From contig CAWDVE010000010.1 in NCBI GenBank assembly GCA_963805625.1, positions 2,132,582 to 2,196,581 on the forward strand: 64,000 bases of DNA, in the 5' to 3' direction. The notes under the pieces were generated by a model. It did no database searches. It had not been told where the DNA came from and worked only from the letters and a program-made list of their open reading frames with translations. A program made the position numbers and the translations under genes. The stretch comes from an uncultured Candidatus Rokubacteria bacterium (GTDB lineage Bacteria > Methylomirabilota > Methylomirabilia > Rokubacteriales > DASRDR01). The number at the start of each line of letters is the position of its first letter. Positions within the stretch are counted from its first letter, which is position 1. Shown here piece after piece: positions 16,106 through 36,806 of the stretch.

Positions 16106-19100
16106 GTGATGCAGTGTCCCCGGTGCCGAACCGAGAATCCCGCTGGCATGAAGTTCTGTGGCCAGTGCGCGACACCGCTCGCGTCCGTCTGCCCGTCCTG
16201 CGCCGCCACCAATCCTCCTGGCAACAGGTTTTGCGGACACTGTGCGGCGCCGCTCGCGAAGACGGCCGAGCCCCGGTTCGGGTCGCCCGAATCCTACACA
16301 CCCAGACACCTCGCCGAGAAGATCCTCACATCGAAAGGCGCACTCGAAGGTGAGCGCAAGCAGGTGACGGTGCTCTTCGCCGATCTGAAGGGCTCGATGG
16401 AGCTCCTCGCGGACCGCGACCCGGAAGAGGCGCGAAATCTCCTCGACCCGGTGCTCGAGCGCATGATGGAGTCGGTCCATCACTACGAGGGGACCGTCAA
16501 CCAGGTCATGGGTGACGGCATCATGGCGCTCTTCGGGGCACCGATTGGGCACGAGGATCACGCCGTTCGCGCCTGCCACGCGGCACTCCGGATGCTGCGA
16601 CGGATCGGCCTCTACGCGGACGAGATTCAGCGCGAGGGCGGCACCCCGGTGCAGATCCGTGTGGGGCTCAACTCCGGCGAGGTGGTCGTGCGCGCCATCG
16701 GCAGCGACCTCCGCATGGACTACAGCGCCGTGGGCCAGACGACCCATCTCGCCGCCCGGATGGAGCAGATGGCGAAGCCCGGTTCCGCGTTGATCACCGG
16801 CGACACCCTGAAGCTGGCCGAGGGCTACATCCAGGTCCGTCCGCTCGGAGCGGTTCCCGTGAAGGGGCTCGAGGCGCCGACGCCGGTCTACGAGCTGACG
16901 GCGCTCATCCCAACCCGCTCCCGGTTCCAGGCGAGCGCCGCCGCGCGCGGCCTGACCCGGTTCGTCGGGCGCGACAGCGAGCTCCAGCAGCTGGGGCAGG
17001 CCCTCGAGCGTGCCGCCGCAGGGCACGGCCAAGCGGTCGCCGTCGTGGGCGAGGCGGGCGTCGGGAAATCGCGGCTCACCTGGGAGCTCACGCGGTCCCA
17101 CCGCACCCACGGCTGGCTGGTGCTCGAGAGCGGCTCAGTCTCCTACGGGAAGGCGACGCCGTACCTGCCCGTCATCGACTTGCTGAAGACGTATTTCCGG
17201 ATCCAGGAGCGGGACGACCCGCGGGCGATCCGCGAGCGTGTGGCGGGAAAGCTCCTGATGCTGGACCGCGGGCTGGAACCGCTCCTCACACCGCCGCTCC
17301 TAGCGTTGCTGGACGTGCCGGTCGACGAGGCCGCGTGGGACACCCTCGACCGGGCCCAGCGCCGACGGAGGACCCTCGAGGCGGTCAAGCAGCTGCTTCT
17401 CCGGGAGAGTCAGGTCCAGCCGCTGCTCGTGGTCTTCGAGGATCTCCACTGGATCGACTCCGAGACCCAGGCGCTCCTCGACGGCCTTATCGAGAGCCTT
17501 CCGACCGCCCGGATGCTGCTCCTCGTCAACTACCGGCCCGAGTACGAGCACACCTGGGGCCGCAAGACCTACTATCTCCAGCTGCGGATCGATCCCTTGC
17601 CGCCCGAGAGCGCCGACGCGTTGCTTCATGCCCTCCTCGGTGACGATCGGACCCTCGCCCCACTCAGGAAGGTTCTGATCCACCGCACCGAGGGGAATCC
17701 CTTCTTCCTCGAGGAGAGCGTGAGAACGCTCGTGGAGACACAGGTGCTGATCGGCGAGCGCGGGACCTATCGGCTGGCGAAGGCGCCGGACGCGTGGCAG
17801 ATCCCGGCGACGGCGCAGGCGATCCTCGTCGCGCGCATCGACCGGCTCTCGCCCGACGACAAGCGCCTCCTCCAGGCCGCCGCCGTCATCGGGAAGGACA
17901 TGCCGTTCGCGCTCCTCCAGGCCATCGCGGACGTGCCCGAGGAGGATCTTCGCCGAGGCCTCGCGCACCTCCAGGCAGCCGAGTTCCTGTACGAGACGAG
18001 CCTCTTCCCGGATCTCGAGTACACCTTCAAGCACGCGCTCACCCACGAGGTCGCCTACGGGAGCGTGCTCCAGGACCGGCGCCGTGCGCTCCACGCCCGG
18101 ATCGTCGACGGCATCGAGGCGGTCCACGCCGAGCGGCTGGGCGAGCACGTCGAGCGGCTCGCCCATCATGCCGTGCGGGGCGAGATGTGGGACAAGGCTC
18201 TCGCCTATCTCCACCAAGCCGGCGCGAAGGCGATGGCTCGCTCGGTCCACCGACAGGCCGTGGCACACTTTGAGCAGGCGCTCGTGGTCCTGGAACGGCT
18301 GCCGGCGACTAGCGACACGGTAGAGCTGAGCATTGACCTGCGCCTCGATCTCCGCACGGCCCTCCTGCCCAGTGGCGAGTTCGCTCGCATCCGCGTGGTC
18401 CTGCGCGAGGCGGAAGCGCTCGCCGTCCGAGCCGGTGACCGACGTCGCCTCGTGCGGGCCGCACAGTTCCTCTGCGTGTCCGCCTACGTCGCCGGAGAGC
18501 ACGCTCAGGCGCTGGCCTCGGGCAATCGTGCCCTCGTAGCGGCGACCGAGCTCGGCGATGTGGGCCTCCAGGCGGTCTCGAACAATTACATCGGCTTCAG
18601 CCATCTCGGGCGCACGGACTATAGCCAGGCGGAGGCGTGCCTCCGTCGGTCGGCGGGCGCCCTTGTCGGCCCGCTCCTTCGCGAGCGCCTCGGCCAAGTC
18701 ATGCTCGTCTCCGCGGCGTCCCGTTCATTTCTCGCGTGGAGCCTGGTCGAACTCGGGAAGTTCACCGAGGCGACCGCTTTCGCGGAAGAAGCCGTCCAGA
18801 TCGCCGAAGCTGCCACTCACCCGGCCAGCGTGCTAGTGGCGCACCTCGGGCTCGGCCTGTCCGCCGTACGGCAGGGGCGGCTCGGTCGAGGGATGTCGAG
18901 CCTGGAACGGGCGCTCGCCATCTGCCGCGATCTCGACCTGCCGCTCTACGTGCACTACGTGGCGCCGCCTCTGGCGCTCGCCTATGCTCTGTCGGGACGC
19001 CCGCGTGAGGCGGTGAACTTGCTCGAGCAGGCAGTCCAACAGGACGTCACCATGGGTGTCATGTGCCATCACGCCCTTACCCTGGCGACCCTCGGCGAGG

Positions 19101-19486
19101 TCTACCTTGAGGCGGGCCGCCCTCTGGATGCTCGAGCGTCCGCCGATCGAGCCCTCCAGCTCTCCCGGGAACGAGGGGAAGCCGGACACGAAGCCCACGC
19201 GCTCCGCGTCCTCGGTGACGCGAACGTCGCAGTCGAGCCGCTTGAGGCCGGACATGCCGATGCCGCCTACCGTCAGGCCCTCGCCCTGGCCGAGAAACAC
19301 GGGATGCGTCCGCTCGTGGCCCACTGCCACCTCGGCCTCGGCAAGCTCTACCGCCGCATCGACGATCGGGCGAAGGGCGACGAGTCCTTGGCGGCCGCGG
19401 CGATGATGTACCGCGAGATGCAGATGGGCTTCTGGCTGGAAAAGGCGGAGGCGCACCTGGGCCGTCCCAACAGGAGCTCATCCTGA
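16106..19486 (+). CDS. Class III adenylate/guanylate cyclase with double zinc ribbon, STAND/AAA ATPase and TPRs
   Basis: Four CxxC pairs; VTVLFADLKGS, MGDG, HLAARME; Walker A GEAGVGKS; FEDLHWID; GNPFF; helical repeats. Confidence 0.93.
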   Translation: MMQCPRCRTENPAGMKFCGQCATPLASVCPSCAATNPPGNRFCGHCAAPLAKTAEPRFGSPESYTPRHLAEKILTSKGALEGERKQVTVLFADLKGSMELLADRDPEEARNLLDPVLERMMESVHHYEGTVNQVMGDGIMALFGAPIGHEDHAVRACHAALRMLRRIGLYADEIQREGGTPVQIRVGLNSGEVVVRAIGSDLRMDYSAVGQTTHLAARMEQMAKPGSALITGDTLKLAEGYIQVRPLGAVPVKGLEAPTPVYELTALIPTRSRFQASAAARGLTRFVGRDSELQQLGQALERAAAGHGQAVAVVGEAGVGKSRLTWELTRSHRTHGWLVLESGSVSYGKATPYLPVIDLLKTYFRIQERDDPRAIRERVAGKLLMLDRGLEPLLTPPLLALLDVPVDEAAWDTLDRAQRRRRTLEAVKQLLLRESQVQPLLVVFEDLHWIDSETQALLDGLIESLPTARMLLLVNYRPEYEHTWGRKTYYLQLRIDPLPPESADALLHALLGDDRTLAPLRKVLIHRTEGNPFFLEESVRTLVETQVLIGERGTYRLAKAPDAWQIPATAQAILVARIDRLSPDDKRLLQAAAVIGKDMPFALLQAIADVPEEDLRRGLAHLQAAEFLYETSLFPDLEYTFKHALTHEVAYGSVLQDRRRALHARIVDGIEAVHAERLGEHVERLAHHAVRGEMWDKALAYLHQAGAKAMARSVHRQAVAHFEQALVVLERLPATSDTVELSIDLRLDLRTALLPSGEFARIRVVLREAEALAVRAGDRRRLVRAAQFLCVSAYVAGEHAQALASGNRALVAATELGDVGLQAVSNNYIGFSHLGRTDYSQAEACLRRSAGALVGPLLRERLGQVMLVSAASRSFLAWSLVELGKFTEATAFAEEAVQIAEAATHPASVLVAHLGLGLSAVRQGRLGRGMSSLERALAICRDLDLPLYVHYVAPPLALAYALSGRPREAVNLLEQAVQQDVTMGVMCHHALTLATLGEVYLEAGRPLDARASADRALQLSRERGEAGHEAHALRVLGDANVAVEPLEAGHADAAYRQALALAEKHGMRPLVAHCHLGLGKLYRRIDDRAKGDESLAAAAMMYREMQMGFWLEKAEAHLGRPNRSSS

Positions 19487-21859: not shown

Positions 21860-22225
21860 ACAGCGGCTCGGGTCGGCGCAGTCGACCGCCGGCTCGGCGT
21901 GCACGACGACGTGCGCGCCCGGCATCGTCGCCGCGATCTCCTGCGCGATGTGGTCCACGAAGTCGTGGGCCTCTCCGAGTGGCAGATGCCGGCACGCCAC
22001 GTTCGTGGACTCCACGTGGGGCTGAGAGCCGGCCCGCCCGTTTGCAGGTCGTGGTGCTCGACGACAAACCGGTGACGGTGGATCACCCCTCGATCGCCCC
22101 GCTGCTCGACCTCGGGTAGGACCGCGTTCATCAGATCGTTGATCGAGCGCACGAGGAACCGGTATGCCGAGCACGACGATGACGCCGGCCACGACGATTC
22201 CGATGCACGCGTCGAGGCCTGATCA
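21860..22225 (-). pseudogene. Cation diffusion facilitator (FieF-like) C-terminal remnant
   Basis: LDACIGIVVAGVIV, RSINDLM, HDLQT and LPLGEAHDFVDHI..PGAHVVVHAEP spread over shifted frames. Confidence 0.65.
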
Positions 22226-22549
22226 GGGCGCCGGCAGGCGCTCCCCCGCGGGATCCCCGAGGGCCCGAGACCAGGCCCTCTGTGGACGGTCAGCCCTGCG
22301 GAAACGCGACCACAGGACGGGCCGGTCGAGGTGTCGCGCGCTCGATTGGGATCGCGCTCTGGTCATGGAGAGGCCTAACCGTGACAACACGGACTGCCAG
22401 CTTGTCCGGTCGCGAGACCAAGATGGCACTGTCGTTCTTGTTGCCGCACACTGCCAAACCGAGATCGCCTGTGTCGCTTTCGCCCGGAGAATCAAACGCT
22501 TGCGTGAGGTCCACCGCCTGGACCGAATGGGAACGGGGTTACTGGCTTC

Positions 22550-22565
22550 TGGCACAGAACCTGCT
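22550..22565 (+). promoter_or_regulatory. Sigma54 promoter upstream of the M11-like protease
   Basis: TGGCACA-GAAC-CTGCT, close to the TGGCAC-N5-TTGC consensus. Confidence 0.65.
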
Positions 22566-22736
22566 CAATGGCCAAGCGACCGACCGAGCGCAGGAAGATC
22601 GTCTCCGACCAACACGCTAGCTGAGGACGAACGGAACTTCGGACCAGGGCCAATCCTCACGTGAGGGCCATGCGACCGAAGGGAACGAGCTGGCAGGCTC
22701 GGAGTCGAAGGCGGTCTTCCGCGAGGGAGACTGCCC

Positions 22737-24632
22737 ATGAGTGCGGCGTGCGTATTCGCGCGACGGAGTTCCTCATCCCGCCGGCAGTTTCCGCGCTTCA
22801 TCCTCGGCCTTCTCATCTTTGAGCTGGCGCTCTCGGTCAATGGGGGCCTTGCCCTTGCTCATGGCCCCTCACCTTCTGGACCCAACCCGACCGCGGATAG
22901 TCTCACCAACACGCTGCTCGCCCTGAGTGCGCAGCATCGACAGGCAAGCCCCGCCCACAAGGCCCAGATCGAGAGCCAGCTCCTCGCCACCGCGACCGCC
23001 CGCTATCAGTTCCTGGCGTCGCTGATCGAGGACGACCCGGGCGAGGTGTTGCGGGTCGCCTTGCCCGCCGCTCTCCGGGCCGCGCTGCCACCCGCGGTCA
23101 GAGCTTATGTCGAGGAAGAGGTAGAGGCCGAGGGGACCCTGGAAGTTCTGCATGCGCACCAGGACGGCGGCAGCCGCTATCTCTACTTCCTCGACACCGC
23201 CGCCGAGCGGCTGTCGCTCCACTTCGCGGCCGATCCACCGGAGCTCCAGACCGGCTCTCGGGTGCGGGCCAGGGGTATGCACGTCAGGGGAGCGCTCGCG
23301 CTCGGCTCTGGCAAGGGCAACGTCACGACGGTCTCCCCGGCTGTCTCGAGCACCCGGGGGGAGCAGCGCACCCTTGTGATCCTCGTCAACTTCTCGGACG
23401 ACCCCACGGAGCCCTACACGCTCGACGAGGCGCGGAGCGTTGTGTTCGCCACAACGAGCCAGTTCTTCCTGGAAAACTCGTTCGAGCAGACGTGGCTCAC
23501 GGGCGACGTCGTGGGCTGGTACACCATCCCGCTCAGCGTGACCGTCTGCGACTCTTCCACACTCGCCTCCCAGGCCAAATCGGCCGCCTCCACGGCCGGT
23601 GTCGACCTAACCGCGTATACGCGGTATGTCTACGCCTACTCCAACGCCTGTGGAGGGTTGGGGCTCGGGACGGTGGGCGGCAATCCCTCCCAAGCCTGGA
23701 TCAACGGGAGCCTTGATCTTAGCGTGCTCGCCCACGAGCTCGGCCACAACCTGGGGCTCTACCACTCGCATGCGATGGACTGCGGAAACCAAGTGCTCGG
23801 TCCGAGCTGCACCATCTACGAGTACGGCGACAGGTTCGATGCCATGGGCAACATTGCCGCCGGCCACTTCAACGCCTTCCACAAGGAGCGTCTTGGCTGG
23901 CTGAACGCCGAAGCCTCACCCCAGATCACGACGGTCCTGGCCGGGGGCACGTACACGCTCGAGGCCTACGAGCGCGCTGGCTCGGGGCCGAACGCGCTCA
24001 AGATCCTGAGATCAACGGACCCGAGCACCGGGAAGCGGACCTGGTACTACGTCGAGTCCCGCCAGGCCATCGGCTTCGACGGATTCCTGGCCGAGAACGC
24101 GAACGTCGTGAACGGGGTTCTCATCCACACCGGGTCCGAGTCGAGCGCCGACAGCAGCTACCTCCTGGACATGACCCCCGCGAGCGGGAGCTTGGTTGTC
24201 TATGACTGGCGGGACCCCGCGCTCGGGGTGGGCCAGAGTTTTTACGACCCGGAGTCGGGCGTCACTCTAACGACGGACTGGGTAACGGGGACCGAAGCGG
24301 CGGTGACGGTGCGCTTCGACACACCGGTCGTGACTGCAGAGTCTATGACGATCTCAACGGATCAGGCGAGCTACACGGTGGGGCAGTCCGTCTCCATCAC
24401 GGCAACGGTGCGGTCCGGGGACTCACCTGTCCCGAATGCCAACGTGACGTTCACGGTCACCAAATCGTCGGGAACCGTAACCACGGGAAACGCGACCACC
24501 GGATCCAATGGCAAGGCTGTGTACAAAATGCGGCTGAAGAGGCAAGATCCGGTCGGAATCTATCAGGCAGGTGCCGCAGCCTCGAAGGACGGCCAGTCGG
24601 CAAGTGCCATCACCAGCTTCGCGGTGCAGTAG
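22737..24632 (+). CDS. Secreted metzincin metallopeptidase (M11 gametolysin/M6-like) with C-terminal Ig-like domain
   Basis: Signal peptide (..LALA), TLVILVNF, HELGHNLGLYH, YGDRFDAMG Met-turn, KERLGW. Confidence 0.87.
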   Translation: MSAACVFARRSSSSRRQFPRFILGLLIFELALSVNGGLALAHGPSPSGPNPTADSLTNTLLALSAQHRQASPAHKAQIESQLLATATARYQFLASLIEDDPGEVLRVALPAALRAALPPAVRAYVEEEVEAEGTLEVLHAHQDGGSRYLYFLDTAAERLSLHFAADPPELQTGSRVRARGMHVRGALALGSGKGNVTTVSPAVSSTRGEQRTLVILVNFSDDPTEPYTLDEARSVVFATTSQFFLENSFEQTWLTGDVVGWYTIPLSVTVCDSSTLASQAKSAASTAGVDLTAYTRYVYAYSNACGGLGLGTVGGNPSQAWINGSLDLSVLAHELGHNLGLYHSHAMDCGNQVLGPSCTIYEYGDRFDAMGNIAAGHFNAFHKERLGWLNAEASPQITTVLAGGTYTLEAYERAGSGPNALKILRSTDPSTGKRTWYYVESRQAIGFDGFLAENANVVNGVLIHTGSESSADSSYLLDMTPASGSLVVYDWRDPALGVGQSFYDPESGVTLTTDWVTGTEAAVTVRFDTPVVTAESMTISTDQASYTVGQSVSITATVRSGDSPVPNANVTFTVTKSSGTVTTGNATTGSNGKAVYKMRLKRQDPVGIYQAGAAASKDGQSASAITSFAVQ

Positions 24633-24769
24633 CGGTAACCTCGCTCAGGCGCACGAAGCTCCTGAACGGGCAGCGCTCTCCCGCTAAGGCAGGGCTCGAA
24701 GGCCCTCGGCCTCGGCTCCCGCAGCGTGTCAGAACAAGCCTTCGCCTGGGAGCCCGGCTCAAGTTTGTC

Positions 24770-26104
24770 CTAATCCCCCGCCTTCGCACGCTCGAGCTGT
24801 CGCTGCAACACGCTGGCGAACTGCTCGGTGGGACGTGCGCCAACCAGGATGAAGGGCGTCTCGCCGCGAAACAGGACGAATGTGGGGACCGTCCTGACGC
24901 CGATGCCCTGCCCGTCGTACAGATCGCGAAGCACGCGCTCCAGGGCCTGCCGGCTTGCCAAGCAGGCGGCGAACCGGGCCTTGTCGAGGCCGAGACTCGC
25001 GGCGATTTCTGTCAGCGCCGTATCCGGATCCTCGCCATTTGACCACTGCTCCATCCGCTCGAACAGCAGGTGATGCATGGGCCAGAACTTGCCTTGATCG
25101 CCAGCACATTTTGCGGCGCTGGCCGCCGCCGGGGCACGGTTGTGGATCCCCCCCAGGGGGAACTGCTTGACGACCCATCGAATCTGTCCCGTCTCGATAA
25201 AGCGCTTGGCCAGTTCGGGTTGGGTCGTCAACTCGTGGCGTTGGCACGGGGGGCACTGAAAATCCACGAACTCCACCATCACCATCTTGGCGTCCGGACT
25301 ACCCTTGTATGGATCCCCGGCGACCGTGAAGCCCGGGCGCTTCGGATCGGGCGCCAGGCCCTCCGGCTTGGCCCAGAATGGCAACTCGACCTTCTGGGCC
25401 GGCTGGGCCTCTTCCGTCTTGGGCGGCTCCTTGCCGGCCAGCAGGTCGTCGATCCATCGCGTGAAGACGTCGACGGGCTGGGCCCCGACCAGCGTGTAGG
25501 TCTTACCGCTCGGTCGGTGAACGAACTGGAAGGTGGGCGTCCCGTTGAAGCCCAGGGCCTGCCCCGCCGCCACACTCTGTTGCACGAGGGCCTCATGGCG
25601 GCCCGAGGCCACACACTGCTCGTACGCGGTCATGTCGGCACCGGCCTTCTGGGCGACCTTGGCTAGGAAGGGCCGGGGATCGGGCAGCCGGTTCCACTCC
25701 TGCTGGGTTTGAAACAGCACATCGTGCATCTGCCAGTACCGACTCGCCCCCTGCTCGCCCACACACCGAGCGGCCACGTGGCCTCTCGGCGCCATGGGAT
25801 GCAGGCCAACGAGCGGAAGATCGCGAAGCACGAACTGCACCTGCCCCGGCCGGACATACTTTTCCAGGAGAGCCGGCAAGGTCTCGCGGGCGTACCGCTC
25901 GCAGAACGGACAAAGATAGTCGGTGTACTCCACCAGGGTCAGTGGGGCGTCCGGATTCCCCCGAAAAGGATACCCGTCGGAAGTGAAACCAACAGGCATC
26001 CCCTGATAGGTCTCCAGGACCGCGGCGTGCGCGGCACTGCTCCCAATGAACCAGACAGCCGCGAGCGAGAGCCAGAGCCAGCGTCTCCAATGTCTCGAAT
26101 TCAT
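24770..26104 (-). CDS. Exported DsbA-family protein with two thioredoxin domains
   Basis: Signal peptide ..AAHA; DYLCPFC..GTPTF and DFQCPPC..TVPTF. Confidence 0.9.
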   Translation of the reverse strand: MNSRHWRRWLWLSLAAVWFIGSSAAHAAVLETYQGMPVGFTSDGYPFRGNPDAPLTLVEYTDYLCPFCERYARETLPALLEKYVRPGQVQFVLRDLPLVGLHPMAPRGHVAARCVGEQGASRYWQMHDVLFQTQQEWNRLPDPRPFLAKVAQKAGADMTAYEQCVASGRHEALVQQSVAAGQALGFNGTPTFQFVHRPSGKTYTLVGAQPVDVFTRWIDDLLAGKEPPKTEEAQPAQKVELPFWAKPEGLAPDPKRPGFTVAGDPYKGSPDAKMVMVEFVDFQCPPCQRHELTTQPELAKRFIETGQIRWVVKQFPLGGIHNRAPAAASAAKCAGDQGKFWPMHHLLFERMEQWSNGEDPDTALTEIAASLGLDKARFAACLASRQALERVLRDLYDGQGIGVRTVPTFVLFRGETPFILVGARPTEQFASVLQRQLERAKAGD

Positions 26105-26191
26105 GGTCTCCTCATAGGTTAGCCGTTACCACGGCCAACCTCATCGCCACTGCTCGTCCAGGTCATGTCCTGGACGTCGAACAGCCCTCCC

Positions 26192-26222
26192 GCTAGCCCG
26201 GCGTCTCGGACGCCGGGCTAGC
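26192..26222. terminator. Stable hairpin between the secreted-protein gene and the DsbA gene
   Basis: GCTAGCCCGGCGTC-TCG-GACGCCGGGCTAGC, 14-bp perfect stem; no U-tract. Confidence 0.55.
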
Positions 26223-26320
26223 CCGGGAGGCGTCATGGACTTGACGCACCAACGCGCGACCGGGTCGGCACGCCCGCGTTGCGGAGCGCGCCGCCCGGTC
26301 GCCGGATCGCGACGGCTCGA

Positions 26321-27880
26321 CTACGGGATCGTCGTGGTCACAGTTACCGAGGCGCTACCGGACGGTGAGGACTGCACACCGTCATCATCCGTCACGCCGC
26401 CCGTCACCCTGTCCGTGTGCGTGAAGCTGCACGACGTACTGACGATTTTTCCCACGAACTGACAGGTGTAGTTGCCACTCTGTGCGATGGTAGCCGGCAG
26501 CGTTCCCGGCCCCGGCGAGGCCTGGCCACAGCTCGTGCTCACCACCTGTTCGCACGTGGCCAACACTCCGCAGTCGGTATTGGCCGCGTGCGTCGCTGCG
26601 ATGTTGCCGAACTTGTTGTCAGTGAGCGTACTCAGCGTCAGTGTATCAATTGCCGACTGGTTGCTCACCACGACCTGATACGTCGCGTCCAGCTGGCAAT
26701 TGGCAGCAGACTGCGCTGTCTTGGCCAAGGTCGGTGTCGCAGACACGTTCTCGATCCCTACGTCCGCGTCGTCGTCATCGCACACTGCGGCGTTGTTGGG
26801 AGTCTGCGTTCCACAGACCTCGACCGTGTCGGTGACCGTCGTACCGAAATCCCCCGACACGAATGCCTGGAACTTACACGTAGCGCTGCCGCTCGGAGCG
26901 AGCACGACACCGATCAGGTCGGGGCAGCTGAAGTTTGAATCGAAGGTGCAGGCATCAGGCGTCGTAGCGTTCGGCTCACCTACCCCGCACGCCGAAATCG
27001 CGCCCAGGTCACCGTACAGATCGTCCTGGATGCTGCTGATGGTCACGGACTCGACCAACGAGTCGTTGGTCACCTGGACGGTGTAGGTCACCGCGCCGCC
27101 CGTCTCGGGCACGGTGGCCGGCGACGCACTCTTCACCACTGTGATTTCCGCCTCCTCGACGGTGACCGGGACCTGGAAGGTGTCATCACAAACGCACTTC
27201 GACTTCGTGTCCGGGGCGAAGGACGGGGTAGGGGCATTCGCGTTGATGGTAGCGTTTATGCTGCAAACCGTGCCCTGATTGCTGTGCCAACTGGTGCAGT
27301 TGGGCAGGTTCAGGAAGCCATCGCCGTCGGAGTCCTGGCATAGGACGTTGGGGATCGTGAAGGTCAGACCAGGCGGATTGCCGTCCACAGGATCGGGGTA
27401 CGTGCCGGCATTGAGGTCGCCGCAGGTATCACCATCCAGCTGCAGTACGGGCGAGTTAGTAGGGGGAGGAGCCGCAAGCCTGCTGAGCGAACATGTCCCC
27501 AGCCTGGCATTGGCACCGCCCGCGGTGTTGAAGAAAAAGGCGGCGTCATACCGGGCGTTGGCAGTCACGATCGTCTCGAACGTCGCCGTCAGGGTGAAGT
27601 GTGTGCCCGAGGTGCAGGTGTTAGGCGACACACTGAGCGCGCGGGAAAGCCTGATGTCGTTGGCCGTACAGTTGAGTTTATCCGAGTTCGGGACCGGCTC
27701 AGCGGTGTGCCCCGAGAAGACCGTCTGCATGCAGACCGTGTCGGGTGTCGTCTGACCGCTGACCGCCGACGCCGGCTGGGCCATCAGGAGAAGCCCGCTC
27801 ACCGCCAGGACCCCGAGCAGAATGGGGAGCAGTCTCGTGGGCAGGTGTGAGAGTTTAGTTCGACATGCGCCTGCTTTCAT
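26321..27880 (-). CDS. Secreted Cys/Thr-rich protein with two Ig-like (DUF11-like) repeats; surface protein or adhesin candidate
   Basis: Signal peptide ..QPASA; many Cys; repeated KxA..TYxVxVxN..(I/L)xD..(Y/F)G pattern. Confidence 0.8.
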   Translation of the reverse strand: MKAGACRTKLSHLPTRLLPILLGVLAVSGLLLMAQPASAVSGQTTPDTVCMQTVFSGHTAEPVPNSDKLNCTANDIRLSRALSVSPNTCTSGTHFTLTATFETIVTANARYDAAFFFNTAGGANARLGTCSLSRLAAPPPTNSPVLQLDGDTCGDLNAGTYPDPVDGNPPGLTFTIPNVLCQDSDGDGFLNLPNCTSWHSNQGTVCSINATINANAPTPSFAPDTKSKCVCDDTFQVPVTVEEAEITVVKSASPATVPETGGAVTYTVQVTNDSLVESVTISSIQDDLYGDLGAISACGVGEPNATTPDACTFDSNFSCPDLIGVVLAPSGSATCKFQAFVSGDFGTTVTDTVEVCGTQTPNNAAVCDDDDADVGIENVSATPTLAKTAQSAANCQLDATYQVVVSNQSAIDTLTLSTLTDNKFGNIAATHAANTDCGVLATCEQVVSTSCGQASPGPGTLPATIAQSGNYTCQFVGKIVSTSCSFTHTDRVTGGVTDDDGVQSSPSGSASVTVTTTIP

Positions 27881-28148
27881 CTCTAGCCCCTCACGCGGGT
27901 GTGAGCTTTCGCCATTCGACTCTCACACCGCTTCGGCGCTCGCTGGCGCTCGGGGTTGGGCCTCTCGGTGGGCCTCTGGGCGGCTCTCGGGGAGCTCTGG
28001 GATGCCCTCAGCGGGGCTTTCGTAGCTACGCGGGTGAGAGCCCGGTGAGCCTCCTTCCGGTGCGAGCTGTTCCGCAGTTGCGTCAAATGAACACGTCGGT
28101 CCGGCGGCCGGGTGCAACGGCTCATGGAAGCGCCGCGGCGGTCACGCT

Positions 28149-28901
28149 CTAACCCACATCACGGCATTCGACCGTCCTCGCCGGTTGGGCGCCGGGCCCT
28201 CCAGGGCGCTGCTCCGCGGCCGTGGCATCCCTGCGCGACGTCTGACCCATCATGCTCGCCAGGGCCTCTTGGAATGACACGGGGCCCAGCGAACCCCCGT
28301 TCTCCGTTATGGAGAGCCGTCGGCGCTCCGTCGACTTGCTGCCGATCTTCGCTCCCGGTCTCGACGCTCCGGACGCGGCGGAGGAGCGCGAAGCCCCCGC
28401 AGCGTACGCGAGCGGCGCTCGCCGCGCCCGCTGTTCGGGCGATGCCCTCAAGCTCGTGCGGGAACCTGACGCGAGGAGGGCCTGCCGAACGCGGTGCGCC
28501 AGGAACCGGGCGGTTTGCGGAGACACCCCCAGCCGCCGGTCGAGCGTGGCGCCGCTGAGGCCATTGTGAGACCGACAGAGATGCGCGATCGCCAGAAGCC
28601 ACTTGTTGAGCGAGACGTGACTGCTCTCGAACGCGGTCCCGACGGTCACGGTGAACTGGCGGCGACACGCCTTGCACTTCAGGACCCCGGCGCGCGCCGG
28701 CCGAACTGAAGCGTCCTTGGCCTGCAACCGATAGGCTCCAGCGGAGCCACAGTGCGGGCAGACGGGTCCCCCCGGCCATCGCACCTGCTCGAGGAACGCC
28801 CGGGCAACGTCTTCCGGAAGGAACGCCGCCGACGAAGCCGCAAGACCCCTGGGATCCAGCATCCTTGTACGCGCCAAACGTCTGGCTAACGCTCGGGCCA
28901 A
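28149..28901 (-). CDS. IS1595-family transposase N-terminal zinc ribbon plus HTH, without DDE domain
   Basis: VRWPGGPVCPHCGS..KCKACRRQFTVTVGTAFESSHVSLNKW..LGVSPQTARFLAHRVR; no catalytic domain follows. Confidence 0.75.
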   Translation of the reverse strand: MARALARRLARTRMLDPRGLAASSAAFLPEDVARAFLEQVRWPGGPVCPHCGSAGAYRLQAKDASVRPARAGVLKCKACRRQFTVTVGTAFESSHVSLNKWLLAIAHLCRSHNGLSGATLDRRLGVSPQTARFLAHRVRQALLASGSRTSLRASPEQRARRAPLAYAAGASRSSAASGASRPGAKIGSKSTERRRLSITENGGSLGPVSFQEALASMMGQTSRRDATAAEQRPGGPGAQPARTVECRDVG

Positions 28902-28974
28902 CCGCCTGCACCATCGCGGAGACCCGCGGTCGCCGGAGGGCGGGGAATCGACGGACAGACGCCTGCTTCGGTGC

Positions 28975-29253
28975 TCACGGCACTGCGCTCCGGAGCCCGC
29001 GACCCTTCTCCGCGCCGCTCAGGGCGCTCGGAAGAGCCGCGCGGGCTGGAACTGGCCGAGTGGCCTCGATCGAGCTCGGTCGGGGCATGCTCTCAGCTGC
29101 GGGCCGAATGATCTCGAGGTGCGGCCGTCCGCACTTCGGGCACTTCAACTCCAGGATGACCTGTCCCGCCTGGAGCTCGTTGACGAAATCGCCGAGCCGG
29201 CGGTTACACTCCCTGCAACGGACCTGCGTCTGGGTCGCCGCGCCCACGGTCAC
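28975..29253 (-). CDS. Mu Com-like zinc-finger protein
   Basis: VRCRECNRRLG..LELKCPKCG matches the Com family pattern; GGAG upstream. Confidence 0.72.
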   Translation of the reverse strand: MTVGAATQTQVRCRECNRRLGDFVNELQAGQVILELKCPKCGRPHLEIIRPAAESMPRPSSIEATRPVPARAALPSALSGAEKGRGLRSAVP

Positions 29254-29470
29254 CGCTCCACTCCGTCTACATGCGAGTGGCGCCCCTTACTCTGAGCACG
29301 GCGACCGCAAGCCCACAGCAACGCTGGTGTTTCGGTCTCACGGTCACCAGTGACGCGCCGACAGGGAGGCAGTTGGTAACTGGCCTGGGGCTGAGTGTCA
29401 ACACCCTTGACACAGCTCGCCACACTCGGTCTCACCGTTACGTTACTCCGTGAGACCAGGATGGTTCCGG

Positions 29471-29486
29471 TGCAAGCCGAAGGCCT
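29471..29486 (-). promoter_or_regulatory. Possible sigma54 promoter for the Com-like gene leader
   Basis: Minus strand AGGCCTT-CGGC-TTGCA (GG-N10-GC); the implied start lies at the edge of the hairpin-rich leader. Confidence 0.4.
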
Positions 29487-30146
29487 TTAGGCAGAATGCT
29501 TGTCGCATGTCTATGTGGCGCGGCAGAGGGGTGCAAGATTCGAACCGATACGGGATACGGGTTTTCACACTGTTCAAACGGTCGGCGACCAGGCCGTCTT
29601 CTTCCCATTGCTTCCCATTGCTTCTCTATACATGTACGCGTGCGACGCGTCTCGGGAAGCGCTGAGAGCCTGGCAAATGGACCATTGAATCTGTAACTCA
29701 CATTCCTCTCATCAGAAAGTCACTACTATGTCATCAGGAAAATCATTACCCATGTCTATCAATCGCTTCCTGCATCCAATTGGCCTTCGGGGAAAGATCC
29801 ATCCACTGGCGCTCGGGAAACTATCACGGCACATGAACACACTCCAGCAACAGCGATCTAGGCGCTAGAGCCTCGGCTTTTCCCGGGATCTTGTCAAGAG
29901 CAAGATCACAAACCCAGAGAAGCCCGGTTCCTCTGGCCCTGCGCTAGTTGCCAAACCCACCAGTCGATCATCGGGCGTCAGAGCCGCGTCTGTCGCCATG
30001 TCGCGGACCTCGGGCGATGACCGCAAGTTCCGCTACCGCTGCCAGCACGCGTATTACCGGGGCCGACCGTCTGCACGAACCGGCGTCCGCTCGGGATGCT
30101 CGCGACGAACGAGGCGGTCCAAAGCGCATCGTTTTCTTACTCTTTG

Positions 30147-35365: not shown

Positions 35366-36806
35366 CCTGTCAAGCCATCTAAGAAAGATACCGAGGGGTG
35401 AATCGTCGAGCCATCTAACATGTAACCCTCGGAGACCGAGCCTGGGGCCGGCGTAGGTGGTTGGCAAAGGTGAAGTCCGGGGTGCCGGGCGGGCGGCCCG
35501 GGTGCGGCTTCGGCGGTGCCGGGATGATGGGCGGGAAGTTCGCCGCCGTGGGGATGGGCACGCCCGCCACCCGCGCGGGCGTGGCCAAGGCGACGAGCCG
35601 CTCGATCTTCCGATCGATGGCCTCGGCCAGGACGAAGGGATCCAGCTGATCGCGTAGGCGGACGAGTTCGCGCACCGCCTGGGAATCCGCCTCGGGGCAG
35701 CTCTGGACCCGCTCGAGGGGCGTGCGCGGAGCATCGTAGTGACGGCGCAACCGCGCGCCGACCCGTTCCTTGCTGAGGAGTTTGACCGACGGCAGGAAGA
35801 GGTTGTGCAAGAGCCGGAGCTCGTGCCGATAGAGCGCATTCAGCGCGGTCACCGCCGCCGGCGTGTCGTAGCGCCAGTAGCCTACGAGCTTCCGGACGTG
35901 CGTCCAGTTCTTCTGCTCGATGTGGGCGTTGTCGTCCTTCTTGTACGGTCGGCCGCGTGTGAACTGGATCTCCTGCGCCTGGCAGTAGCGGTAGAGATGA
36001 TGGTTGATGAACTCGGACCCGTTGTCGGAGTCGATCCCCCGGAGGCGGAAGGGCAGGACCTGCCGGATCTCGTCCAAGGCCGTCTGGACGCCGCGTTCGC
36101 CGCGGCCGAGGACCGCCCGGGTCTCCACCCAGGTGGTGTGGATGTCCGTGACGTTCAGGGAATGGGCGAACTCGCCATCGGCCCGATGGCCCGCATGCGC
36201 GACCAAGTCCAGCTCGGTGAAGCCCGGCACGGTCACATCCCAGTGATCGGTCTTCAGCGGAATGTGGTGCTTGAGGAGAGTGCCCGGTCGGGTCCCGCCA
36301 TAGCGGCGCGTCGTGCGCTGCCGCTTGGTTGCGGCCAGGCGCCGGTCGATCTGGCGGGGGCTGATCGCGCGGAGCTGCTGGCACACGGTGGCGGACAGCC
36401 GGAGGCGCCGGCGTGCCCAGGGCAGCCACAGGGGGAGCAGCGCCTTCAACCGCACAGACCAGGGATACCCCGCGGCCTCCCAGATCGCGGTCAACGCCTG
36501 GATCACCGCCAGCCCGTACGTGGCGGGGCGCCGCCGACGACGGGGCCGCTCGGGGCCCGGGGGCGGCCCGTTGAGAAGCCGCAGCGCGTACTTGCGCTGG
36601 TAGCCCGTGGTCTCACAGAACTCATCGAGGATCCTCCCCCGCTCGACCCGGGCCGCGCCCCGGTAGCGCGGGTAGACAGCCGTGAGGACCTCCCACCGCG
36701 CACGGCGACTCATCATGTAACCCTCCTCCGGCCACGGGGCCCTCGAGGGTTACATTCCAGATGGCGCGTCTCTTTCCGCTCGGTAACATTTTAGATGGCG
36801 CGATAC
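35366..36806 (-). mobile_element. Apparently intact IS (rve/DDE, IS481/ISNCY-like) with multi-copy terminal motifs and candidate 6-bp target duplication GGTCCC
   Basis: GCCATCT..TACC/AACC motifs at 35374 and 35410, inverted at 36748-36765 and 36782-36799; GGTCCC at 35360-35365 and 36807-36812. Confidence 0.8.
35415..36716 (-). CDS. DDE integrase-core transposase
   Basis: ELDLVAH, DSDNGSEFIN, RPYKKDDNAHIEQKN. Confidence 0.92.
   Translation of the reverse strand: MMSRRARWEVLTAVYPRYRGAARVERGRILDEFCETTGYQRKYALRLLNGPPPGPERPRRRRRPATYGLAVIQALTAIWEAAGYPWSVRLKALLPLWLPWARRRLRLSATVCQQLRAISPRQIDRRLAATKRQRTTRRYGGTRPGTLLKHHIPLKTDHWDVTVPGFTELDLVAHAGHRADGEFAHSLNVTDIHTTWVETRAVLGRGERGVQTALDEIRQVLPFRLRGIDSDNGSEFINHHLYRYCQAQEIQFTRGRPYKKDDNAHIEQKNWTHVRKLVGYWRYDTPAAVTALNALYRHELRLLHNLFLPSVKLLSKERVGARLRRHYDAPRTPLERVQSCPEADSQAVRELVRLRDQLDPFVLAEAIDRKIERLVALATPARVAGVPIPTAANFPPIIPAPPKPHPGRPPGTPDFTFANHLRRPQARSPRVTC

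What the first reader, a model, noticed from the sequence alone, without database searches (positions are those of the whole stretch)
24770..29490. Com-like zinc finger and catalytic-less IS1595 domain heading a secreted-protein/double-DsbA cluster
Seen: four co-oriented genes, namely a Com-like CxxC..CPKC protein, an IS1595 zinc-ribbon/HTH domain without DDE, a Cys-rich Ig-like secreted protein and a two-domain DsbA. No phage genes or IS ends are evident. The 13-mer TTCCGGTGCRAGC sits at the 5' edge of both long leaders (28055-28067 and 29465-29477). Known: phage Mu Com is a zinc-finger translational activator that opens an RBS-occluding structure in mom mRNA. Inference: two mobile-element domains have been domesticated as regulators of a surface protein and its disulfide catalyst.
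Basis: partly seen in the sequence, partly recalled or inferred. Interest (0 to 1): 0.75.

Follow-up and report, generated by a model that had tools for sequence, protein, structure and literature searches.

The report
Com zinc finger with hairpin-array switch
A small bacterial zinc-finger protein related to phage Mu's Com sits upstream of four tandem RNA hairpins that match Com's known binding motif, and it likely binds them to switch on a large secreted-protein gene, in most relatives probably by undoing a transcription stop signal, a job I did not find described for Com.

Summary
The leader of the secreted-protein gene (28019-27935, minus strand) holds four hairpins GA-GNNC-loop-GA-GNNC-C, 21-25 nt apart. 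They match the published Com SELEX motif NGAGNNCC(N)2-3GAGNNCC. Arrays occur at 16 of 21 loci of this conserved Com-like family, on the sense strand only, with compensatory changes. In 11 of 16 complete arrays the penultimate hairpin competes with a U-tailed terminator, which predicts Com antitermination. The window lacks that terminator; Com there more likely frees the ribosome-binding site, but folding support is moderate. One relative has a c-di-GMP-II-like riboswitch ahead of com. The IS1595 piece belongs to a 35-member DDE-less clade under purifying selection (dN/dS 0.21-0.38), but it is optional (4 of 21 loci, deleted in one), so it is likely domesticated with an unknown role. The 13-mer is present but not conserved and is compatible with chance. 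The DsbA partner varies. Binding and regulation are untested. Verdict: a new variant of the Com/mom switch.

The parts
28975..29253 (-). Com-like Cys4 zinc-ribbon gene; conserved core is residues 7-51, tail is variable
   Evidence: dN/dS 0.05-0.28 in 6 of 7 pairs, one saturated
28149..28862 (-). DDE-less IS1595-derived protein: zinc ribbon, HTH, variable linker, short FxEALAxMM helix
28003..28019 (-). Com-type hairpin H1 (GCCC/GGGC stem, 6-nt loop ending GA); its 5' arm is complementary to the downstream SD region
27982..27997 (-). Com-type hairpin H2 (GCUC/GAGC)
27958..27976 (-). Com-type hairpin H3 (GGCC/GGCC); in most relatives its 3' arm is the 5' arm of a terminator
27935..27951 (-). Com-type hairpin H4 (GCGC/GCGC)
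27878..27934 (-). Expression platform in this genome: a spacer hairpin, then SD (GAGGGG) and ATG; no U-tailed terminator
26321..27880 (-). Secreted Cys-rich tandem beta-sandwich (DUF11/DUF7507-like) protein, the predicted regulated cargo
24770..26104 (-). Exported double-DsbA thioredoxin (CPFC, CPPC); NCBIfam Rcas_1661 family hit above cut-off
22737..24632 (+). Convergent M11-type metallopeptidase with an Ig-like C-terminal domain; recurrent neighbour (7 of 21 Com loci)
29254..29490 (-). Structured com leader; shares short pseudoknot-like words with the c-di-GMP-II-like leader of L023 but has no credible Rfam match
28055..28067 (+).
29465..29477 (+).

Best explanation
A patchily distributed bacterial cassette pairs a Com-family zinc finger with an array of three to four hairpins matching the Com binding motif in the leader of a secreted-protein gene, and Com likely binds these hairpins to switch that gene on. 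Shown in sequence: the array, its 21-25 nt spacing, sense-strand bias, compensatory changes and linkage to com. Predicted by folding: in most relatives free RNA forms an intrinsic terminator that uses the 3' arm of the penultimate hairpin (H3) and encloses H4; Com bound to H3 would withhold that arm and let RNA polymerase read through. In the window, and perhaps L043 and L021, the terminator is absent and C-rich arms of the array pair with the Shine-Dalgarno region instead, so Com would act as in Mu, by freeing the ribosome-binding site. Inferred: several sites give a threshold response to Com level; in at least one relative com transcription is set by a c-di-GMP-II-like riboswitch plus terminator, placing the cassette under a surface-lifestyle signal; DsbA folds the Cys-rich cargo; the DDE-less IS1595 protein is an optional, domesticated DNA-binding accessory whose target is unknown.
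For: Published SELEX motif NGAGNNCC(N)2-3GAGNNCCNN with a 3-4 bp stem closed by C-G (PMC6483171) matches the units, and the Mu mom site has the same loop type. Tandem GAGNNC-GAGNNCC units: 64 on the sense strand (19 relatives plus window, about 29 kb, about 5 expected from the genome rate of 0.16/kb) and 0 antisense in the 19 relatives; 40 complementary versus shuffled mean 14.1, maximum 25 in 10,000. 93% of cells paired, 8 double-sided changes, 0 of 500 shuffles as high. Strong RNA-model hits in 4 of 151 order genomes: three carry com and the fourth (G065) has the array at a contig start; 5 of 5 com-bearing genomes have one array, in cis. Terminator-shaped hairpin plus U-rich tail in 11 of 16 complete arrays; P(H3) <=0.02 in 9 of 9 computed, yet H3 covaries (CG 7, UG 4, UA 2), so it must form in some state. 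Window SD-to-AUG opening energy, median 7.3 to 3.5 kcal/mol when the array is held in the bound form. c-di-GMP-II-like hit before com in L023 and c-di-GMP-I-GGC before the M11 peptidase in L023 and L027.
Against: No binding or expression data. The protein falls below the Pfam Com cut-off and has no significant PDB fold match. In the window the platform is not cleanly resolved: one folding window left the SD paired in every state, and bound-form opening did not improve for L042 and L022. With H3 forced, a shortened terminator stem persists in several relatives. The RNA model was built from 15 of the arrays; only L022, G029 and G065 are independent hits. Several loci are close kin (L027/L029, L035/L040, L037/G065), so counts overstate independence. 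In Pseudomonas syringae a com stop mutation did not change levansucrase output (PMC3899960, passage), so com adjacency need not mean regulation. L046 has a distant homolog and no array in 2.2 kb.
Confidence: 0.72

Rival explanations
1. The GAGNNCC repeats are DNA operators, spaced about one helical turn apart, bound by the IS1595-derived zinc-ribbon/HTH protein; the Com-like gene is incidental.
For: Heptamers recur every 9-13 nt. The IS piece keeps four Cys and the HTH under purifying selection and lies next to com in 4 loci.
Against: Only alternate heptamer pairs are complementary and they covary. Units are strand-specific and match an RNA SELEX motif. com is followed directly by the array with no IS piece in the sequence held for L021, L022, L027, L031, L037, L042, L044 and L045, and G029 has an array with the IS gene deleted.
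Confidence: 0.06
2. The family works as described, but the window's own copy is a decaying switch: it has lost the terminator, the internal promoter and the riboswitch, and the cargo is expressed regardless of Com.
For: No U-tract after H4. The -35-like TTGACG at 28086-28081 has no -10 match (direct reading; one search found no promoter). No Rfam match in the com leader. H1 has AA instead of GA and H3 an 8-nt loop. SD release is only moderate.
Against: All four stems are intact and com is under purifying selection. L043 has the same layout (array, spacer hairpin, SD) with the SD paired to the H3 flank.
Confidence: 0.15
3. The protein binds the array but represses, by stabilising the terminator-nested H4 or blocking the leader; or it is a zinc or redox sensor whose RNA binding is conditional.
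For: H4 forms in both states (P about 1 in most terminator-type arrays). Many members also hit HypA-type zinc ribbons, and DsbA is a frequent neighbour.
Against: The terminator already dominates without protein, so repression would add little; conservation of H3 is only explained if it forms at the terminator's expense. Mu Com is an activator (PMC6483171).
Confidence: 0.07

Closest known systems
Phage Mu Com / mom translational activation (Pfam PF10122; PMC6483171)
   Same: Small Cys4 zinc ribbon upstream of its target gene; hairpin with bipartite GAGNNCC motif, C-G closing pair and GA at the 3' side of the loop; predicted relief of an SD-occluding structure (window).
   Different: No phage context; three to four full sites at about 22-nt spacing instead of one; most relatives use an intrinsic terminator; cargo is a secreted Ig-like protein; the protein is below the Pfam cut-off.
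Pseudomonas com-like genes before llpA bacteriocins, tailocin cargo and levansucrase (PMC6240691, PMC3899960; passages read)
   Same: Chromosomal com-like gene placed in front of an exported or secreted protein gene.
   Different: The passages read describe no RNA target or mechanism, and one knockout had no effect; here a conserved target array and two switch platforms are visible.
Protein-dependent attenuators: ANTAR dual hairpins, BglG/SacY RAT, HutP, TRAP (recalled, not tested by a call)
   Same: A protein binds leader RNA that overlaps the 5' arm of an intrinsic terminator; multiple sites (ANTAR, TRAP, HutP).
   Different: Different protein fold and RNA motif; no Rfam match to the array; no sensor domain on the protein.
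IS1595-family transposase (PF12760 plus PF12762; NF033547)
   Same: Zinc ribbon and HTH, 37-51% identical to full-length relatives in the order.
   Different: No DDE domain; separate clade of 35 sequences; single copy in the genome; short C-terminal helix instead.

Membership tests
Mu Com family (PF10122) | Four-Cys zinc ribbon (CxxC...CPxC) at the N-terminus with a variable tail | tested here: met
   Cys13, 16, 38, 41 invariant or >=90% conserved in 95 sequences; four-strand model, pLDDT 81
Mu Com family (PF10122) | Scores above the Pfam gathering cut-off | tested here: inconclusive
   Window 14.6 bits versus 22.9; member P0166 passes at 24.9; 52 of 95 at E<=0.01; HH 92.8% to Mu Com
Mu Com family (PF10122) | Cognate hairpin with bipartite GAG(N)2CC motif in the leader of the downstream gene | tested here: met
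   against PMC6483171
Mu Com family (PF10122) | Binds zinc and binds that RNA | not testable with these tools
   needs binding assays
Com/mom system | Activation by opening an SD-occluding structure | tested here: inconclusive
   Median opening energy falls in window, L021, L043, not in L042, L022; ambiguous; 11 of 16 arrays use a terminator instead
Com/mom system | Located in a Mu-like phage upstream of mom or a DNA-modification gene | tested here: not met
   Cargo is a secreted protein; only two weak family hits in viral contigs; 0 of 80 fetched viral pattern hits held a chained array
Protein-dependent antitermination leader | Protein-binding structure mutually exclusive with an intrinsic terminator | tested here: met
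   Relatives only: P(H3)<=0.02 in 9 of 9 computed, U-tail in 11 of 16; not present in the window itself
IS1595 insertion sequence | DDE catalytic domain | tested here: not met
IS1595 insertion sequence | Terminal inverted repeats and target duplication | tested here: inconclusive
   No convincing repeat in the region, but none recovered for two full-length relatives either
Domesticated transposase-derived regulator | Conserved, catalytic-less clade under purifying selection at a recurrent locus | tested here: met
   35-member clade, SH-aLRT 98, quick tree; dN/dS 0.21-0.38 in 6 of 6 pairs; beside com in 4 loci; deleted in G029
Domesticated transposase-derived regulator | Binds an operator and regulates a gene | not testable with these tools
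   no conserved operator found
c-di-GMP-II riboswitch (RF01786) | Rfam match in the com leader | tested here: not met
   Window: none. L023: 48.8 bits, below the 53.5 cut-off, E 4e-10

The most novel reading that the evidence does not exclude
Com-family zinc fingers are a general, portable class of bacterial RNA-switch regulators: one 45-residue domain reads arrays of identical hairpins and works either as a cooperative transcription antiterminator or as a translational activator depending on the platform attached, here wired below c-di-GMP riboswitches to control adhesin-like secreted proteins in soil bacteria, with a domesticated IS1595 DNA-binding domain as a second regulator.
Probability: 0.5. 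Interest if true: 0.8.

Novelty: new variant of a known kind. Interest (0 to 1): 0.66.

Why it matters
Com has been studied as a single-site translational activator in one phage, and the role of its chromosomal relatives is stated to be open (PMC6240691). This locus family gives a precise, testable target for a cellular Com: a natural array that matches the in vitro selected motif, attached to a terminator in some genomes and to a ribosome-binding site in others. If confirmed it adds a very small antiterminator class, shows how one RNA sensor can swap between transcriptional and translational outputs, and offers a compact protein-RNA switch for synthetic biology. The DDE-less IS1595 clade is a separate candidate for transposase domestication in bacteria.

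Tried and rejected
13-mer as operator: rejected. Rfam for the array and both window leaders: nothing credible. Genome-wide regulon: none; one array in the genome, no paralogs of the five proteins. Frameshifted full transposase: no DDE remnant. IS ends: inconclusive. Leader-peptide reading of the GAG repeats: spacing of 21-25 nt does not keep one frame across loci. A two-hairpin pattern search was too loose: 90 viral stretches (80 fetched) and 34 of 251 genomes, of which only G027 and G065 among the 120 loci re-read held chained hairpins. The first RNA model had mis-set pair columns and was not used; it was rebuilt. Foldseek for the Com model: no match at E<=0.001; for the secreted protein only generic beta-sandwich matches, TM 0.14-0.28; Atlas gave unnamed or DUF11/DUF7507 clusters. 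Sequencing runs: no RNA holder listed; laid DNA contigs were short pieces, one identical across the array, and added nothing. The careful tree did not finish; the quick tree is quoted. The script stopped before L045 and L181. Loci dropped before counting: duplicates L026, L028, L034, L038, L039 and weak zinc-ribbon hits L024, L025, L047-L065, L079, L080. Literature searches that found no description of Com antitermination or of this array; of IS1595 domestication: (listings only). The library lacks most subscription papers, and supplements were not read.
Full report
OBSERVATION. The IS1595 piece has a strong zinc-ribbon hit and no DDE family hit, and six full-length IS1595 transposases align only to its first ~135 residues, with no remnant downstream in any frame. 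The 519-aa protein has 23 Cys, 454 homologs and models as tandem beta-sandwiches behind a signal-like helix. The 444-aa protein has two DsbA domains. The Com label is weak on sequence alone. The 13-mer is present but has a third genomic copy, no copy within one mismatch in relatives and a chance level near 6% for two such leaders. All five proteins tested are single-copy in the genome.

DISTRIBUTION. Relatives in the same order include a contig titled Ca. Rokubacteria, so the host is probably of that group. The Com-like family is tightly conserved (104 proteins; dN/dS 0.05-0.28) but rare: 4 of 251 phylum genomes, one betaproteobacterial genome, 21 confident metagenome contigs of 40 returned, and only two weak viral hits. 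No listed match covers window 22216-30145 in 14 same-genus genomes, while the flanks match (119 weaker rows unseen), and GC dips there. It behaves as a horizontally moved island. After removing duplicates and weak hits I counted 21 Com loci including the window. The intact IS piece is at 4, a DsbA gene at 7 (SurA-DsbA in relatives), a convergent or adjacent M11 peptidase at 7, and the cargo belongs to three unrelated secreted families. Many contigs are short, so these are lower bounds.

A non-coding stretch at 27934-28018 is 81% identical to the leader of a different secreted gene in G027. It is an array of hairpins GA-GNNC-loop(GA)-GNNC-C; the window has four, at 28019, 27997, 27976 and 27951. 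I saw the repeat unit in three loci before opening the paper. It equals the SELEX motif of Com, NGAGNNCC(N)2-3GAGNNCCNN, with a 3-4 bp stem closed by C-G and contacts at the loop GA (PMC6483171; I read parts 1-3 of 6). The Mu mom site has the same loop type. Without requiring pairing, tandem units number 64 on the sense strand of about 29 kb downstream of com (about 5 expected) and 0 on the antisense strand of the 19 relatives; 40 are complementary against 14.1 in shuffles, and the rest are mostly pairings between neighbouring hairpins. Fourteen of those 19 relatives have such hairpins; four of the five without end 111-533 nt after com. Pair counts give 93% paired cells and 8 double-sided changes, 0 of 500 shuffles (kinship not controlled). 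An RNA model built from 15 arrays scores strongly in 4 of 151 order genomes and once in each of 5 com-bearing genomes; independent hits are L022, G029 and G065. In total 16 of 21 Com loci have an array. Rfam has no match to it.

MECHANISM. In 11 of 16 complete arrays the 3' arm of the penultimate hairpin extends into a long stem that encloses the last hairpin and ends in a U-rich tail. The penultimate hairpin has probability <=0.02 in that state (9 of 9 computed), yet its inner pair covaries. The simplest reading is that it forms only when protein holds it, which removes the base of the terminator. A shortened stem persists in several cases, so binding at the last hairpin may also matter (inference). 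The window, L021, L022, L042 and L043 lack the U-tail. In the window the 5' arm of H1 can pair with the SD region, and holding the array in the bound form lowers the median opening energy of SD-to-AUG from 7.3 to 3.5 kcal/mol; L043 and L021 behave alike, L042 and L022 do not, and one folding window was ambiguous. So translational activation in the window is about an even bet; Com-dependent activation for the family is likelier. Upstream input: L023 has a c-di-GMP-II-like aptamer and terminator before com, and L023 and L027 have c-di-GMP-I-GGC riboswitches before the peptidase. The window shows neither, though its com leader shares short words with the L023 aptamer. That DsbA serves the Cys-rich cargo follows from known DsbA function and was not tested.

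THE IS1595 PIECE. The 29 best homologs all lack the DDE family. On a quick tree of the N-terminal domain, 35 DDE-less sequences form one side of a 98% branch with no DDE-bearing member (the query profile was built from four of them, and some could be contig-end fragments). dN/dS is 0.21-0.38 in all six pairs. Many members keep a C-terminal FxEALAxMM-like helix behind a divergent linker. In 183 order genomes the two high-scoring members both lie beside com. Five Com and IS-clade database entries share identical longest-contig lengths, a weak hint of further linkage. Against an essential role: G029 has an internal deletion that removes it, and eight loci run com-array-cargo without it. I read it as domesticated but optional; no operator was found.

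COMPARISON AND NOVELTY. It works like Com/mom and meets the protein-fold and RNA-motif tests, but fails the phage and cargo tests, and most relatives use a terminator. Chromosomal com-like genes before secreted products are known in Pseudomonas, with the role left open (PMC6240691, passages) and one negative knockout (PMC3899960, passages; PMC3973379, passages, added nothing on Com). Five searches found no report of Com antitermination or of this array. Earlier notes of this scan report Com-like proteins with terminator- or SD-type leaders in other genomes; they are unchecked, were read after my analysis, and suggest the class is wide. No note covers this family by sequence or place. Verdict: new variant of a known kind, interest 0.66.

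Noticed in passing
L023, L027, L029, L031, L035, L037, L044, L181, about 12-30 nt upstream of the first hairpin: An SD-like G(A/G)G-GTG followed by four codons and a stop (VxxxX*, all three stop codons used) in 8 of 16 leaders. It resembles the EVIRP end of com and would park a terminating ribosome one footprint before the array. Not present in the window.
   Followed up: partly
window 29471-29485 (minus): GG-N10-GC with TTGCA, a sigma-54-like signature overlapping the upstream 13-mer; read directly, consensus recalled, not tested.
   Followed up: no
window 29332-29458: The word GGTCTCAC occurs as an inverted pair (29428-29435 and 29450-29457) plus a third copy near 29334, with a long hairpin between; a better operator or RNA-switch candidate than the 13-mer, but not seen in relatives.
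   Followed up: partly
window 28948-29050 (minus): Weak RNA-model hit (17 bits) in the com tail, with one GUGC/GCAC hairpin over the com stop codon; similar weak hits in G027 and G029. Possibly a Mu-like site for the next gene.
   Followed up: no
L035 1336-1437 and 2048-2155: One locus carries two arrays, each with its own terminator, after a single com gene.
   Followed up: partly
L023 13743-13822; L027 5647-5728: c-di-GMP-I-GGC riboswitches above the cut-off upstream of the M11 peptidase; absent upstream of the window's peptidase.
   Followed up: partly
window 35415-36716 (minus): An integrase-core type transposase ORF (family label by inspection) whose DNA is 100% identical at two other places in the genome over the part queried: a recently active IS, unrelated to the finding.
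   Followed up: no
protein P0357: A 438-aa protein named glycosyltransferase (Ca. Binataceae) clusters with Com member P0125; possible fusion or clustering artefact.
   Followed up: no
window 16106-19486 (+): Double zinc ribbon adenylate/guanylate cyclase with AAA and TPR regions, by inspection of the translation; label recalled, not scanned.
   Followed up: no
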